Shown: positions 14,395 through 16,866, counted from the first letter of the stretch. The stretch is 18,284 nt of DNA from a virus (IMGVR_UViG_2534681673_000003:1-18284); one strand, 5' to 3'. A program made the numbers and translations. Notes: generated by a model not told the origin, from the sequence alone.

Positions 14395-16866
14395 ATGAGT
14401 AAAATATTTATTTGCGCCGCCATTCCTGACGAACAGGCAATAAAAAACGAGGGCGCTGTTGCTGTGGCCACTGCCATTGAAGCCGGTGATGAACGTCGCG
14501 CCCGCGCAAAATTTCACTGGCAATTCCTTGAACATTATCCGGCTGCTCAGGACTGCGCTTATAAATTTCTTGTCTGTGAGGATAAACCCGGTACACCCCG
14601 CCCAGCCCTCGACTCCTGGGATGCTGAATATATGCTGGAAAACCGCTGGGATGAGGCGTCTGCTTCCTTTGTCCCGGTTGAGACTGAATCAGATCCGATG
14701 AACGTCACTTTTGACAAGCTGTCCCCTGAAGTACAGAACGCTGTCATGGTTAAGTTCGATACATGTGAAAACATCACCGTTGATATGGTGATTAGCGCAC
14801 AGGAATTGTTGCAGGAAGACATGGCAACATTCGACGGACATATCGTTGAAGCGTTGATGAAAATGCCTGAAGTTAACGCCATGTATCCGGAGATTAAACT
14901 GCATGCCATCGGGTGGGTTAAGCATAAATGTAAGCCTGGTGCCAAATGGCCAGAAATTCAGGCAGAGATGCGCATCTGGAAAAAACGTCGCGAAGGTGAA
15001 CGCAAGGAAACCGGAAAATATACGTCTGTTGTTGATCTGGCCCTCGCCAGAGTCAACCAACAGCACACTAAAAACTCAGCAGCAAAAATCAACTCTGTCA
15101 CTGCTGCCATTCGTCGCGAATACAGGCAGACATGGAAAACACTGGATGAAGAGCTGGCTTACGCTCTCTGGCCTGGTGATATTGATGCCGGAAACATTGA
15201 CTGCAGCATCCATCGCTGGGCAAAAAATGAAGTTATCGACAAGGATCGCGAAGACTGGAAACGTATCTCTGCATCAATGCGCAAACAACCTGATGCACTT
15301 CTATACAGCCGTCAGACTATTTTCGGCCTTGTTCGTGAACGTCCGATCGACATTCATAAAGATCCCGTGGCGCTGAACAAATACATCACTGAATACCTGA
15401 CTACAAAGGGCGTATTTGAACATGAAGAAACAGACCAGAGCCCTGCTGATGCTCTCCTCCTGTCAGCAGAACAAACTGATCCAGTGGAGACGGCGGAATC
15501 CAATTCTCAAAAAAATGAAATCCTGGTGGAAGCTGAACCATCTGTAGAGCGTGAAGGGCCTTTTTATTTCGTCTTTACCGATAAGGACGGGGAAAAATAC
15601 GGTCGCGCAAACAAACTTTCTGGTCTGGACAAGGCGCTGGCTGCCGGGGCTACTGAAATCACGAAAGAAGAATATTTTGCCCGCAAAAACGGCACATACA
15701 CGGGCTTACCGCAAAATACAGATATATCTGAACATTCAGAACAACCAGAGCCGGTAAAAGTTACCGCTGACGAAGTAAACAAAATTATGCAGGCAGCCAA
15801 TATCAGCCAGCCTGACGCCGATAAATTGCTTGCTGCATCACGTGGTGAGTTTGTTGAAGGGATTAGCGACCCGAATGATCCGAAATGGGTTAAGGGGATT
15901 GAAACCCACGATTCTGTGAACCAGAACCAGCCCGAATCGGAACAAAACGACCAGAAAGCGGAACATAACAGCCCAAATGCGTTACAAAACGAGCCAGAAA
16001 CGAAACAGCCTGAACCAGAAGAGCAACAAGAACCGGAAAAAGTCTGCACCGCCTGCGGTCAGACCGGCGACGGCAACTGTCCTGACTGTGGCGCGGTAAT
16101 GGGCGACGCAACATACCAGGAAACATTCAACGAAGAAAGCCAGGATGAAGCCCGGGAGAAAGATCCAGAGGAAATGGAAAGTGCCGTATACCCGAACAAG
16201 GAGTGCACCGAAGGCGATCAACATGCCAATGGCAATAATGAAACAGGCGAGACAGCAAATCCCTTAATTAAGGTGAACGGTCATCACGAAAGCACATCCA
16301 CCAGCAGGTTGTGGCACCATCTGATGATTGACCTTGAAACAATGGGCAAAAATCCTGATGCGCCAATAAACGCTCTGGCCGGTAAGTTTTTTGATCCGGC
16401 AACCGGAGAGATGGGGCCAGAATTCAGCAAAACTATCGATCTGGAAACCGCGGGCGGAGTCATCGATCGGGACACCATTAAGTGGTGGCTGAAACAGTCA
16501 CGGGAAGCACAATCAGCCATTCTGACCGATGAAATCCCGTTGGATGACGCACTGTTGCAATTACGGGAATTTATCGACGAAAACTCCGGTGAATTTTTTG
16601 TTCAGGTCTGGGGAAATGGAGCCAACTTTGACAACGTAATTTTACGCCGTTCATATGAACGGCAGGGGATCCCCTGCCCATGGCGTTACACCAATGATCG
16701 CGATGTAAGAACGATGGTTGCTATGGGACTGGTGATGGATTTCGATGCTCGAAGTGTCATCACATTTGAGGGTGAGCGCCATAATGCCCTGCACGATGCG
16801 CGTTACCAGGCAAAATACGTTTCAGCTATCTGGCAAAAACTGATCCCGAGTCAGGCTGATTTTTAA
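14395..16866 (+). CDS. Large protein with C-terminal DEDDh (DnaQ-like) 3'-5' exonuclease domain
   Basis: 823-aa ORF. C-terminal domain carries Exo I (HHLMIDLETMG), Exo II (VWGNGANFDNVIL) and Exo III (HNALHDARYQAKY) motifs. Central CTACGQTGDGNCPDCG zinc-ribbon-like motif inside an acidic Glu/Gln/Pro-rich linker. N-terminal ~450 aa of unrecognised function. Confidence 0.85.
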   Translation: MSKIFICAAIPDEQAIKNEGAVAVATAIEAGDERRARAKFHWQFLEHYPAAQDCAYKFLVCEDKPGTPRPALDSWDAEYMLENRWDEASASFVPVETESDPMNVTFDKLSPEVQNAVMVKFDTCENITVDMVISAQELLQEDMATFDGHIVEALMKMPEVNAMYPEIKLHAIGWVKHKCKPGAKWPEIQAEMRIWKKRREGERKETGKYTSVVDLALARVNQQHTKNSAAKINSVTAAIRREYRQTWKTLDEELAYALWPGDIDAGNIDCSIHRWAKNEVIDKDREDWKRISASMRKQPDALLYSRQTIFGLVRERPIDIHKDPVALNKYITEYLTTKGVFEHEETDQSPADALLLSAEQTDPVETAESNSQKNEILVEAEPSVEREGPFYFVFTDKDGEKYGRANKLSGLDKALAAGATEITKEEYFARKNGTYTGLPQNTDISEHSEQPEPVKVTADEVNKIMQAANISQPDADKLLAASRGEFVEGISDPNDPKWVKGIETHDSVNQNQPESEQNDQKAEHNSPNALQNEPETKQPEPEEQQEPEKVCTACGQTGDGNCPDCGAVMGDATYQETFNEESQDEAREKDPEEMESAVYPNKECTEGDQHANGNNETGETANPLIKVNGHHESTSTSRLWHHLMIDLETMGKNPDAPINALAGKFFDPATGEMGPEFSKTIDLETAGGVIDRDTIKWWLKQSREAQSAILTDEIPLDDALLQLREFIDENSGEFFVQVWGNGANFDNVILRRSYERQGIPCPWRYTNDRDVRTMVAMGLVMDFDARSVITFEGERHNALHDARYQAKYVSAIWQKLIPSQADF

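What the first reader, a model, noticed from the sequence alone, without database searches (positions are those of the whole stretch)
14395..16866. 823-aa protein combining an uncharacterised N-terminal region, an acidic zinc-ribbon linker and a DEDDh 3'-5' exonuclease domain
The C-terminal 180 aa carry clear DnaQ-like Exo I/II/III motifs (DLET, NFD, HNALHDA). This occupies the place where lambdoid phages usually encode the 5'-3' Exo/RecE-type recombination nuclease, and no Bet/RecT-type partner is evident in the window. The N-terminal ~450 aa and the Cys4 motif CTACGQTGDGNCPDCG in a Glu/Gln/Pro-rich linker are unassigned. Possible roles include recombination, host DNA degradation or anti-defence.
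Basis: partly seen in the sequence, partly recalled or inferred. Interest (0 to 1): 0.45.

Follow-up and report, generated by a model that had tools for sequence, protein, structure and literature searches.

The report
RecE-like prophage protein with swapped exonuclease
This is the intact form of the E. coli K-12 pseudogene ydfE: a very common lambdoid-prophage protein that keeps the N-terminal scaffold and zinc-ribbon linker of the RecE recombination nuclease but carries a T4-DexA-like 3'-5' exonuclease in place of RecE's 5'-3' nuclease and has no RecT partner. The family is already catalogued, but its biological role has not been tested.

Summary
Window 14395-16866 (+) encodes an 823-aa protein with a complete DEDDh 3'-5' exonuclease domain (Pfam Rv2179c-like, E=1e-60), a Cys4 motif inside an acidic disordered linker, and a folded N-terminal region.

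Residues ~262-625, including the Cys4 ribbon, are homologous to K-12 RecE 278-591. That homology ends exactly where RecE's PD-(D/E)XK nuclease would begin.

The first 255 residues are 91% identical to the K-12 Qin-prophage pseudogene ydfE. Current Pfam architecture is YdfE_N + YdfE_C + Rv2179c-like.

Among sampled relatives of the scaffold, 4 of 4 with a PD-(D/E)XK nuclease are followed by RecT. None of 8 DEDDh-type loci has RecT; xis or int follows instead.

The closest solved enzyme is T4 DexA, a DNA 3'-5' exonuclease. By the published criteria the domain does not look like EcD, the recently described anti-T4 DexA homologue.

The identical protein is in RefSeq as "exonuclease". The DEDDh module's DNA occurs in about 75% of complete E. 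coli genomes. Phage Tritos (88% nucleotide identity) is the published prototype of a "nuclease-only, Chi-rich, no anti-RecBCD" lambdoid class.

Verdict: a real, catalogued gene of moderate interest, with its biological role still open.

The parts
14395..16866 (+). Complete gene: 823-aa YdfE-family / RecE-like protein with a C-terminal DEDDh exonuclease (identical to RefSeq WP_000034485.1, 'exonuclease')
   Evidence: ORF and translation. 100% identical in E. coli STEC1587 and JNE151685. PHROG 2082 matches full length. Precomputed Pfam: YdfE_N, YdfE_C, Rv2179c-like.
14381..14384 (+). GAGG Shine-Dalgarno sequence, 10 nt before the ATG
   Evidence: Read directly from the sequence.
14395..15048 (+). 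N-terminal alpha/beta domain (aa 1-218; Pfam YdfE_N); 'type A' N-module, alternative to RecE residues 1-240
   Evidence: pLDDT above 90 over aa 1-205. 91% identical to K-12 ydfE. dN/dS 0.10. Module table. No significant fold match.
15127..15429 (+). Helical middle domain (aa 245-345; Pfam YdfE_C), homologous to RecE ~aa 278-360; detected in 42 of the 55 long scaffold sequences compared
   Evidence: NCBIfam RecE model positions 243-602 match aa 219-625. BLASTP against RecE. phmmer module table. pLDDT above 90. dN/dS 0.20.
15547..15714 (+). Small beta-hairpin/helix insert domain (aa 385-440), absent from K-12 RecE but present in many relatives with the YdfE-type N-terminus
   Evidence: Falls in a gap of the RecE alignment. 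pLDDT about 95. dN/dS 0.03. Module table.
15805..16269 (+). Acidic, largely disordered linker shared with RecE (aa 471-625, matching RecE 455-591); nucleotide homology to K-12 recE ends at gene nt 1874 (aa 625)
   Evidence: BLASTP. blastn 73.6% identity over gene nt 1425-1874. Net charge and composition. pLDDT below 50.
16045..16092 (+). Cys4 motif CTACGQTGDGNCPDCG (aa 551-566), a putative zinc ribbon, conserved in RecE as CNACGQTGGDNCPDCG
   Evidence: pLDDT about 77 with short strands. dN/dS 0.09. Pfam zinc-ribbon models are only sub-threshold.
16315..16833 (+). DEDDh 3'-5' exonuclease domain (aa 641-813; Pfam Rv2179c-like, DexA-like); catalytic residues D646, E648, D746, H796, D801
   Evidence: Pfam E=1.4e-60. 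T4 DexA (8KEL) is the nearest solved structure: phmmer E=5e-5, profile E=6e-16. Catalytic residues conserved. dN/dS 0.11.
13927..14115 (+). dicB, upstream gene of the same early-left operon
   Evidence: Pfam DicB E=7e-34. Same gene order in Qin, Tritos and other loci.
14112..14255 (+). ydfD/DUF1482, immediately upstream; reads as 47 aa here because of a 1-bp deletion relative to the closest genome
16928..17197 (+). Excisionase gene, immediately downstream, in the position where recT follows recE in Rac
   Evidence: RefSeq annotation of the identical locus. Pfam Exc.
17166..18284 (+). Integrase gene; the prophage lies next to potC
   Evidence: Pfam Arm-DNA-bind_1 + Phage_integrase. RefSeq context.

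Best explanation
The gene is the intact version of the K-12 Qin-prophage pseudogene ydfE. It is a modular member of the RecE protein family in which RecE's PD-(D/E)XK 5'-3' exonuclease domain is replaced by a T4-DexA-like DEDDh 3'-5' exonuclease. The RecT annealase gene that normally follows recE is absent.

Shown here: the domain architecture, the intact catalytic pentad, the homology to RecE up to the swap point, purifying selection on every folded module, and the position of the gene as last in the repressor-controlled early-left operon (cI ... dicB-ydfD-ydfE-xis-int).

Inferred mechanism: the protein is made on prophage induction or infection, not in the quiescent lysogen. The RecE-type scaffold (YdfE_N, YdfE_C, insert domain, zinc ribbon) positions the enzyme on its target. 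The DEDDh domain, tethered by a long acidic flexible linker, removes nucleotides from free 3' ends of DNA using two metal ions, and acts alone rather than as half of an exonuclease-annealase pair.

Most likely biological role (inferred): trimming 3' ends of linear DNA during lytic growth of a phage that has no Gam or Red/RecET system and is rich in Chi sites. Such a phage relies on host RecBCD-RecA for recombination-dependent replication.
For: Architecture. Pfam Rv2179c-like covers aa 641-813 at E=1.4e-60. YdfE_N and YdfE_C are precomputed hits. The first 255 aa are 91% identical to K-12 ydfE.

RecE homology. aa 219-625 match the NCBIfam RecE model at positions 243-602. BLASTP aligns aa 262-625 with RecE 278-591, E=4e-56. 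Nucleotide homology ends at aa 625.

Modularity. Of 55 long scaffold sequences compared, 16 carry PD-(D/E)XK, 8 carry DEDDh and 31 carry no recognised nuclease. Both N-terminal types occur with both nucleases.

Partner coupling. RecT directly follows 4 of 4 PD-(D/E)XK members: K-12 RecE, P0305, P0343 and P0248. RecT is absent at 8 of 8 DEDDh loci.

DNA as substrate. T4 DexA is the only close solved relative (profile E=6e-16, next hit E=0.048). DexA is a DNA 3'-5' exonuclease (PMC12153337).

Catalysis and constraint. The catalytic residues are conserved. dN/dS is 0.03-0.20 for the folded modules.

Expression. In Qin, ydfE is transcribed from the DicA-repressed dicB promoter (PMC11430063). No sigma-70-like promoter is found in window 13400-17300 (0 found against 4.7 expected).

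Recombination context. No SAP or anti-RecBCD gene is present. There are 10 Chi sites in 18.3 kb against 0.6 expected, and 13 in 33 kb of the prophage. Tritos, which carries the 88%-identical gene, is the prototype of the 'nuclease only, no SAP, no anti-RecBCD, high Chi' class (PMC12315714).
Against: No biochemical or genetic test of this protein was found in the searchable literature.

3'-5' exonucleases usually inhibit recombination, as PMC12315714 itself notes. The same authors hesitate to count lone DnaQ-type genes next to int as Rec-module members.

The RecE N-terminal region is dispensable for basic RecET recombination, and its function is unknown (PMC11611040). Sharing it therefore does not prove a recombination role.

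Chi density is only about twice that of the adjacent chromosomal flank (0.39 against 0.20 per kb).

The promoter scan is a crude consensus method.
Confidence: 0.55

Rival explanations
1. Inter-phage competition or defence nuclease of the HREX/EcD type. The DEDDh domain would selectively degrade the DNA of competing phages, for example 5hmC-modified T-even DNA, either in the lysogen or during the phage's own lytic cycle.
For: A standalone E. coli DexA homologue (EcD) degrades 5hmC T4 DNA but not unmodified dsDNA, and protects against T4 when expressed from a plasmid (PMC12153337). The window domain belongs to the same DexA-like family. The module's DNA is in 4044 of 5426 complete E. coli genomes, as expected of a beneficial prophage cargo gene.
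Against: By the published criteria the domain is not EcD-like. The DexA W152 equivalent is Thr766. N-extended (fused) forms have Y, T, C or H there and only 2 of 42 have W, whereas 14 of 32 standalone forms have W. The tetramerisation Asp (DexA D90, Ala in EcD) is retained as D718 here and in 40 of 42 N-extended forms.

EcD is not among the 120 closest homologues, all at least 55% identical.

The gene lies in-line in the repressed early-left operon with no detectable promoter of its own. PADLOC gives no significant hit.
Confidence: 0.2
2. Host-DNA scavenging or degradation enzyme. After induction it would digest host (or nicked and fragmented) DNA from 3' ends to supply nucleotides, as T4 DexA does.
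For: T4 DexA, the closest characterised relative, has this role (PMC12153337). The DexA tetramer residue D90, linked by those authors to activity on unmodified DNA, is conserved. The gene is in an early-lytic operon.
Against: Temperate lambdoid phages are not known to degrade the host chromosome. That is textbook lambda biology and was not tested here. Scavenging would not explain the conserved RecE-type scaffold, or why this gene replaces recE-recT at one fixed locus.
Confidence: 0.12
3. RNA exonuclease. Like M. tuberculosis Rv2179c, which gives the Pfam family its name, the domain would trim 3' ends of RNA, for example host or phage transcripts, sRNAs or nanoRNAs.
For: The Pfam family PF16473 is named for a 3'-5' exoribonuclease. 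RefSeq labels many homologues '3'-5' exoribonuclease'.
Against: A profile of the domain finds T4 DexA, a DNase, at E=6e-16. No RNase-type DEDDh structure scores better than E=0.048. The fusion partner is the scaffold of a DNA exonuclease.
Confidence: 0.08
4. Functionless mosaic remnant. The gene would be an accidental recombinant of recE and a standalone exonuclease gene, carried along passively in prophages.
For: Lambdoid prophages are highly mosaic. The K-12 copy is a pseudogene cut by IS2. Many database entries are fragments.
Against: Full-length copies are present in about 3500 complete genomes and in viable phages such as Tritos, HannyBb and mEp460. Every folded module is under purifying selection while the linkers are not. 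The catalytic residues are conserved. The same architecture has arisen with both N-terminal types.
Confidence: 0.05

Closest known systems
RecE (exodeoxyribonuclease VIII) of the E. coli K-12 Rac prophage
   Same: Both share the homologous middle domain and acidic linker, and the same Cys4 ribbon (aa 262-625 align with RecE 278-591; aa ~470-625 are about 80% identical). Both sit in the early-left operon shortly before xis-int. Both are large multi-domain proteins with the nuclease at the C-terminus. The function of the N-terminal part is unknown in both (PMC11611040).
   Different: RecE's PD-(D/E)XK 5'-3' dsDNA exonuclease domain (aa ~600-866) is absent and replaced by a DEDDh 3'-5' exonuclease. 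The first ~218 aa belong to a different module, YdfE_N rather than RecE 1-240. An extra insert domain is present at aa 385-440. No recT follows. The protein scores 258.8 bits against the 1269-bit cut-off of the RecE equivalog model.
YdfE of the K-12 Qin cryptic prophage (pseudogene b1577), with Pfam YdfE_N/YdfE_C
   Same: 91% identical over all 255 intact codons. The same neighbours are present: ydfA-type DUF1391, dicB, ydfD, then int.
   Different: The K-12 copy is truncated by IS2E and has lost everything from about aa 256 onward, including the exonuclease domain. K-12 studies therefore say nothing about the intact protein.
Gene TRITO_27 of Escherichia phage Tritos, prototype of the 'nuclease-only' Rec-module class of Zheng et al. 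2025 (PMC12315714)
   Same: Orthologue: 88% nucleotide identity over the full 2472 bp, also 823 codons, and the same dicB-ydfD-gene-xis-int layout. Both phages lack a SAP and an anti-RecBCD gene and are rich in Chi.
   Different: Tritos is an isolated phage, while the window is an Stx2a prophage next to potC. Tritos keeps DicF, ydfB and ydfC upstream, whereas the window has an opposite-strand ORF there. The record annotates the Tritos gene as 'exonuclease VIII', which is inaccurate for its nuclease domain.
T4 DexA (PDB 8KEL/8KEN) and its E. coli homologue EcD ('HREX'; Kang et al. 2025, PMC12153337)
   Same: Same DEDDh subfamily. DexA is the nearest solved structure (about 30% identity, profile E=6e-16). 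All five catalytic residues align.
   Different: DexA and EcD are standalone proteins of about 180-227 aa, whereas here the domain is the C-terminus of an 823-aa RecE-like protein. The 5hmC-stacking Trp (W152) is Thr766. EcD's diagnostic D90-to-Ala change is absent, because D718 is retained. EcD is not among the 120 closest homologues.
Standalone Rv2179c-like exonucleases of Salmonella, Klebsiella and Enterobacter prophages (for example P0230, 189 aa)
   Same: 55-70% identical to the C-terminal domain. They are also the last gene before xis-int in a lambdoid early-left operon.
   Different: They lack the RecE/YdfE scaffold. They more often carry Trp at the DexA-W152 position and a non-Asp residue at the D90 position, which makes them EcD-like.

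Membership tests
DEDDh (DnaQ-like) 3'-5' exonucleases, Pfam PF16473 Rv2179c-like / DexA-like | Match to the family HMM above the curated cut-off | tested here: met
   204.5 bits against a cut-off of 27, E=1.4e-60, covering profile positions 1-177 of 177.
DEDDh (DnaQ-like) 3'-5' exonucleases, Pfam PF16473 Rv2179c-like / DexA-like | Exo I D-x-E, Exo II D and Exo III H-x4-D catalytic residues | tested here: met
   D646/E648, D746 and H796/D801 align with DexA D7/E9, D119 and H186/D191. They are conserved in 72/72, 85/87 and 87/87 homologues respectively.
DEDDh (DnaQ-like) 3'-5' exonucleases, Pfam PF16473 Rv2179c-like / DexA-like | Metal-dependent 3'-5' exonuclease activity and its substrate (DNA or RNA) | not testable with these tools
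   Only inferred. The nearest characterised relative is the DNase T4 DexA.
RecE / exodeoxyribonuclease VIII (NCBIfam NF007259 equivalog) | Whole-protein score above the equivalog cut-off | tested here: not met
   258.8 bits against a cut-off of 1269. Only model positions 243-602 of 877 are matched.
RecE / exodeoxyribonuclease VIII (NCBIfam NF007259 equivalog) | C-terminal PD-(D/E)XK 5'-3' exonuclease domain (RecE ~600-866; Pfam DUF3799) | tested here: not met
   No DUF3799 hit. phmmer with RecE 600-866 does not hit this protein, though it hits 16 other scaffold relatives.
RecE / exodeoxyribonuclease VIII (NCBIfam NF007259 equivalog) | Homology of the non-catalytic N-terminal/middle/linker region | tested here: met
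   aa 262-625 align with RecE 278-591 (E=4e-56), including the Cys4 ribbon. The first ~218 aa are a different module.
Two-component viral recombinase (exonuclease + single-strand annealing protein, e.g. RecET or Red) | Adjacent SSAP gene (RecT, Bet, Erf or Sak) | tested here: not met
   The next genes are xis and int. No SSAP lies between cI and int or in the 33 kb of prophage inspected. The same holds at 7 other DEDDh-type loci.
YdfE family (Pfam PF27430 YdfE_N + PF27432 YdfE_C) | Hits to both domain models, and orthology to K-12 ydfE | tested here: met
   Precomputed Pfam hits on this exact protein. 91% identity to the ydfE remnant in the same gene order. The models are not in the local Pfam copy, so scores were not recomputed.
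HREX / EcD-type anti-phage exonuclease (Kang et al. 2025) | DexA-like catalytic domain | tested here: met
   Profile against 8KEL gives E=6e-16.
HREX / EcD-type anti-phage exonuclease (Kang et al. 2025) | Trp equivalent to DexA W152 (stacks on 5hmC) | tested here: not met
   Thr766 in an ungapped local alignment (PWRYTNDRD against PCKFWNQRD). Only 2 of 42 N-extended forms have Trp.
HREX / EcD-type anti-phage exonuclease (Kang et al. 2025) | Asp equivalent to DexA D169 (reads the hydroxymethyl group) | tested here: inconclusive
   phmmer aligns an Asp (VMDFD) to D169. MAFFT aligns Val780 instead.
HREX / EcD-type anti-phage exonuclease (Kang et al. 2025) | Loss of the tetramerisation Asp (DexA D90, Ala78 in EcD) | tested here: not met
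   D718 is retained, as in 40 of 42 N-extended forms.
HREX / EcD-type anti-phage exonuclease (Kang et al. 2025) | Selective degradation of 5hmC DNA and protection against T4 | not testable with these tools
   This needs enzyme and plaque assays.

The most novel reading that the evidence does not exclude
The YdfE/RecE N-terminal scaffold would be a general targeting platform that delivers interchangeable nucleases to the same cellular site, such as DNA ends, the replisome or RecBCD. The DEDDh allele would be the 'host-dependent' alternative to RecET: a lone 3'-end-trimming enzyme that prepares linear phage DNA ends for RecBCD entry. Chi-rich, Gam-less lambdoid phages, including many Stx phages, could then run recombination-dependent replication on host RecBCD-RecA. 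That would also give a first function to the long-unexplained RecE N-terminal region.
Probability: 0.12. Interest if true: 0.65.

Novelty: already known. Interest (0 to 1): 0.35.

Why it matters
The DEDDh module's DNA is found in about three quarters of complete E. coli genomes, often in several copies, and the gene sits in Stx-converting prophages. No experimental test of the full-length protein turned up in my searches.

It is a natural domain-swap experiment on RecE. The scaffold is the same, the nuclease has the opposite polarity, and the annealase is gone.

Working out its function would address three things. It would show how Gam-less, Chi-rich lambdoid phages replicate and recombine. 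It would bear on what the unexplained 600-residue N-terminal part of RecE does, a region that matters for RecET 'direct cloning'. It would also show whether the recently proposed DexA-like anti-phage exonucleases extend to these much more common fused forms.

As a genome-scan finding it is not new. The protein, its domains and its phage class are already in RefSeq, Pfam, PHROGs and a 2025 paper.

Tried and rejected

2. The C-terminal domain is poorly modelled in the full-length prediction, because few rows of that alignment contain it. I relied on sequence evidence for that domain instead.

3. I first read Pfam Exonuc_VIII (PF06630) as the RecE nuclease. That was wrong: PF06630 co-occurs with Rv2179c-like in P0259, so it models the N-terminal/middle region. 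I recounted using DUF3799 and phmmer with RecE 600-866.

4. I could not recover the EcD sequence. It is not among the retrieved homologues. Its 3' primer has no exact match in genome contigs or metagenome contigs, and the primer may include added stop codons.

5. PADLOC gave no meaningful defence-system hit.

6. The zinc-ribbon Pfam models were sub-threshold.

7. Four literature searches were unproductive: 'Rv2179c + prophage' and 'PF16473' returned nothing, and two were swamped by 'receptor' and by the author name 'Qin'. The supplementary tables of PMC12315714, which would show how the Tritos nuclease was typed, are not held.

8. The chance-ORF and decaying-remnant ideas were rejected on dN/dS and on prevalence.
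Full report
**1. Observation**

Window 14395-16866 (+) is an uninterrupted 823-codon ORF. A GAGG ribosome-binding site lies 10 nt upstream.

The segments flanking the Cys4 motif are strongly acidic and rich in Glu/Gln/Pro (net charge -9 and -11). AlphaFold2 predicts them to be disordered.

The ORF is a real gene. The identical protein is RefSeq WP_000034485.1, 'exonuclease'. The whole window matches an Stx2a-converting lambdoid prophage next to potC in E. coli JNE151685, apart from two single-base deletions.

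Against the orthologue in phage Tritos, dN/dS is 0.10, 0.20, 0.03, 0.09 and 0.11 for the N-domain, middle domain, insert domain, Cys4 segment and exonuclease domain. It is 0.34-1.3 for the linkers. That comes from one pairwise comparison, but the pattern is what a multi-domain protein with flexible tethers should show.

**2. Identity of the protein**

The C-terminal domain matches Pfam PF16473 (Rv2179c-like 3'-5' exonuclease) end to end at E=1.4e-60. The five DEDDh catalytic residues (D646, E648, D746, H796, D801) are conserved across the 87 homologous domains aligned.

The nearest solved structure is T4 DexA (8KEL/8KEN). phmmer gives E=5e-5, and a profile of the domain gives E=6e-16, with no other solved DEDDh enzyme better than E=0.048. 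DexA is a DNA 3'-5' exonuclease (PMC12153337). DNA is therefore the more likely substrate, despite the 'exoribonuclease' family name.

The rest of the protein is not an orphan. NCBIfam's RecE model matches aa 219-625 at model positions 243-602, far below its equivalog cut-off (258.8 bits against 1269). BLASTP against K-12 RecE aligns aa 262-625 with RecE 278-591 (E=4e-56). The stretch from about aa 470 to 625 is about 80% identical and includes the same Cys4 ribbon and acidic linker.

At the DNA level, homology to recE covers gene nt 1425-1874 and stops at codon 625. That point is immediately before the DEDDh domain, and it is where RecE's PD-(D/E)XK nuclease begins.

The first 255 residues are 91% identical to K-12 ydfE. 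That gene is the Qin-prophage pseudogene cut by IS2E, and it lies in the same order: dicB-ydfD-ydfE-int. The current Pfam release calls the two N-terminal domains YdfE_N and YdfE_C. PHROG 2082 ('exonuclease') matches full length.

**3. A modular family**

An exhaustive search with aa 1-460 found only 183 cluster representatives among 1.84 billion proteins. I compared 55 long sequences: the window protein, 53 long representatives from that search, and K-12 RecE. Of these, 16 carry a PD-(D/E)XK nuclease (Pfam DUF3799, or a phmmer hit to RecE 600-866), 8 carry the DEDDh domain, and 31 carry no recognised nuclease.

Two alternative N-terminal modules exist: the YdfE_N type, and the RecE 1-240 type. 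Each occurs with either nuclease. The middle domain (YdfE_C, matching RecE ~278-360) is the most widely shared module, detected in 42 of the 55. The insert domain (aa 385-440) and the Cys4 ribbon are optional.

I initially misread Pfam Exonuc_VIII as the nuclease domain. It models the N-terminal/middle part instead, and the counts above use the corrected definition.

**4. The nuclease swap goes with loss of the annealase**

In all four PD-(D/E)XK-type loci examined, a RecT gene follows immediately, usually overlapping the stop codon. These are K-12 RecE, P0305, P0343 and P0248; P0248 has the YdfE-type N-terminus.

In all eight DEDDh-type loci the next gene is xis or int, and no RecT is present. 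These are the window, Tritos, vB_EcoS-689R5, P0259 in two contexts, P0340, P0358 and P0243.

The sample is small but the split is complete. The DEDDh form is therefore not half of an exonuclease-annealase recombinase. This fits the polarity, since a 3'-5' exonuclease does not produce the 3' tails that RecT-type proteins use.

**5. Context and expression**

The early-left operon here reads: cI (LexA-like), DUF1391/ydfA, an opposite-strand unassigned ORF, dicB, ydfD, this gene, xis, int. There is no Gam, Abc2, Bet, RecT or Erf. RusA is present in the nin region.

In Qin, ydfE is co-transcribed from the DicA-repressed dicB promoter (PMC11430063). A consensus scan finds no sigma-70-like promoter between 13400 and 17300 (0 found against 4.7 expected in shuffles). 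The gene is therefore most probably an early lytic function and not a lysogen-expressed 'moron'.

The window holds 10 Chi sites against 0.6 expected from shuffles. The 33 kb of prophage inspected holds 13, about twice the density of the adjacent chromosome.

Zheng, Casjens, Davidson, Amundsen and Smith (PMC12315714) analysed 325 lambdoid phages. They found that phages without an anti-RecBCD function are enriched for Chi and appear to use host RecBCD. They name phage Tritos as the prototype of a four-member 'nuclease only, no SAP, no anti-RecBCD' class with 7-21 top-strand Chi sites. They also report DnaQ-like 3'-5' nucleases in lambdoid Rec modules, while noting that such nucleases usually inhibit recombination.

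Tritos carries the orthologue of this gene (88% nucleotide identity, same length, same neighbours). This protein's phage class is therefore already published.

**6. Prevalence**

Megablast finds the full gene at 80% coverage or more in 3518 of 5426 complete E. coli genomes. The DEDDh module's DNA alone is found in 4044 of 5426, with up to 7 copies per genome. Standalone versions of the domain (183-190 aa, 55-70% identical) occur in Salmonella, Klebsiella, Enterobacter and other prophages. In the Salmonella prophage loci examined, the standalone gene is again the last one before xis-int.

**7. The N-terminal scaffold**

A 2023 review states that the RecE N-terminal region is of unknown function and is dispensable for basic RecET recombination, but that it enhances linear-linear recombination (PMC11611040). 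'Targeting or tethering platform' is therefore my inference and not a result.

**8. Relation to the newly described HREX defence**

Kang et al. 2025 (PMC12153337) showed that EcD, a standalone E. coli DexA homologue, degrades 5hmC-containing T4 DNA but not unmodified dsDNA, and that it protects against T4 when expressed from a plasmid. They attribute 5hmC reading to DexA W152 and D169. They attribute EcD's inactivity on host DNA to loss of the tetramerisation residue D90 (Ala78 in EcD).

In the window protein the W152 equivalent is Thr766. The D90 equivalent is retained as Asp718. The D169 equivalent depends on the alignment used.

Stratified by architecture, N-extended (fused) forms have Y, T, C or H at the W152 position (W in only 2 of 42) and Asp at the D90 position in 40 of 42. 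Standalone forms have Trp in 14 of 32 and often a non-Asp residue at the D90 position. EcD itself is not among the 120 closest homologues.

By the published criteria this domain is therefore not EcD-like, so the defence reading is possible but weaker. PADLOC gives nothing.

**9. Most likely mechanism**

Shown: the architecture, the intact active site, the RecE homology up to the swap point, the constraint on all folded modules, the operon position and the absence of an annealase.

Inferred: on induction the protein is made with DicB and YdfD. The scaffold places it on its target. The flexibly tethered DEDDh domain removes nucleotides from 3' DNA ends, and it acts alone.

The role I consider most likely is processing of linear DNA ends in a phage that depends on host RecBCD, Chi and RecA. 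Overall confidence is 0.55 for the molecular statement plus an early-lytic DNA-end role, and clearly lower for the specific RecBCD link.

Rivals are an HREX-like anti-phage nuclease (0.20), host-DNA scavenging like DexA (0.12), an RNA exonuclease (0.08) and a functionless mosaic (0.05).

**10. Novelty and score**

The protein is identical to a RefSeq entry. Its domains are in Pfam and PHROGs, it is the intact form of a named K-12 pseudogene, and its phage class was described in 2025. I therefore rate it 'already known' as a feature.

What remains open is the function, and that question is worthwhile because the gene is so common and is a natural polarity swap on the RecE scaffold. The RecT-coupling and EcD-criteria analyses here sharpen the question but do not answer it. 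Interest: 0.35.

Noticed in passing
window 2605-18121 (10 sites; - strand at 3419, 6027, 6965, 11108, 14301, 16298, 18114; + strand at 2605, 5443, 7170): Chi (GCTGGTGG) is strongly over-represented: 10 sites against 0.6 expected from shuffles, 7 of them on the strand that is 'top' in lambda map orientation. One lies inside the exonuclease gene. Another sits in a hairpin between ydfD and the gene start (14289-14310).
   Followed up: partly
window 6016 and 14232: The window differs from the otherwise identical RefSeq genome (JNE151685) by two single-base deletions. Each shifts the reading frame of a neighbouring gene: the DUF968 gene (320 aa against 349 aa) and ydfD/DUF1482 (47 aa against 62 aa). 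They could be assembly errors or real pseudogenisation.
   Followed up: partly
window 12883-13398 (- strand; the ORF extends to 13440 from a TTG start): A 171-185-aa ORF lies on the opposite strand inside the early-left operon, in the place where Qin and Tritos have ydfB-ydfC-dicF. It has a coiled-coil-like N-terminal half and a CPKC...CLYC Cys4 motif, with no Pfam hit. Its orientation and position suggest a lysogen-expressed 'moron', possibly an exclusion or defence gene.
   Followed up: partly
window 13724-13743 (+): A terminator-like hairpin (GGCGGAAATGGATATCCGCC followed by a T run) lies upstream of dicB, where DicF ends in Qin and Tritos. Rfam finds no DicF in the window at gathering threshold, so the sRNA seems to have been lost or replaced.
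   Followed up: no
window 1-2205: Virulence and accessory cargo lie at the left end. This comprises an iraM-like anti-adapter gene (1-324, +), sRNA STnc100 (335-547, -), stx2a B and A subunits (622-891 and 903-1862, -), and three tRNA genes (1957-2205, -) annotated Arg, Gln and Ile in the source genome.
   Followed up: partly
window 6573-6897 (-): A hok/sok-type toxin-antitoxin pair lies inside the nin region. The Rfam sok match scores 113 bits, and the source genome annotates a Hok/Gef family protein there.
   Followed up: no
L003 6743-8570 (Salmonella prophage): The standalone 189-aa Rv2179c-like exonuclease lies directly downstream of a DndB-like gene and after YfdP and YfdQ (DUF2303) homologues, again just before xis-int. 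By the W152 and D90 criteria this standalone form (P0230) looks EcD-like (Trp and Ala).
   Followed up: partly
relatives P0245, P0249, P0250, P0251, P0264, P0288, P0295 (about 700-790 aa): Many proteins with the YdfE-type N-terminus have a 250-350-aa C-terminal region with no Pfam hit. They probably correspond to the 'RecE-2' proteins without a nuclease domain mentioned by Zheng et al. 2025. What they carry in place of a nuclease is unknown.
   Followed up: no
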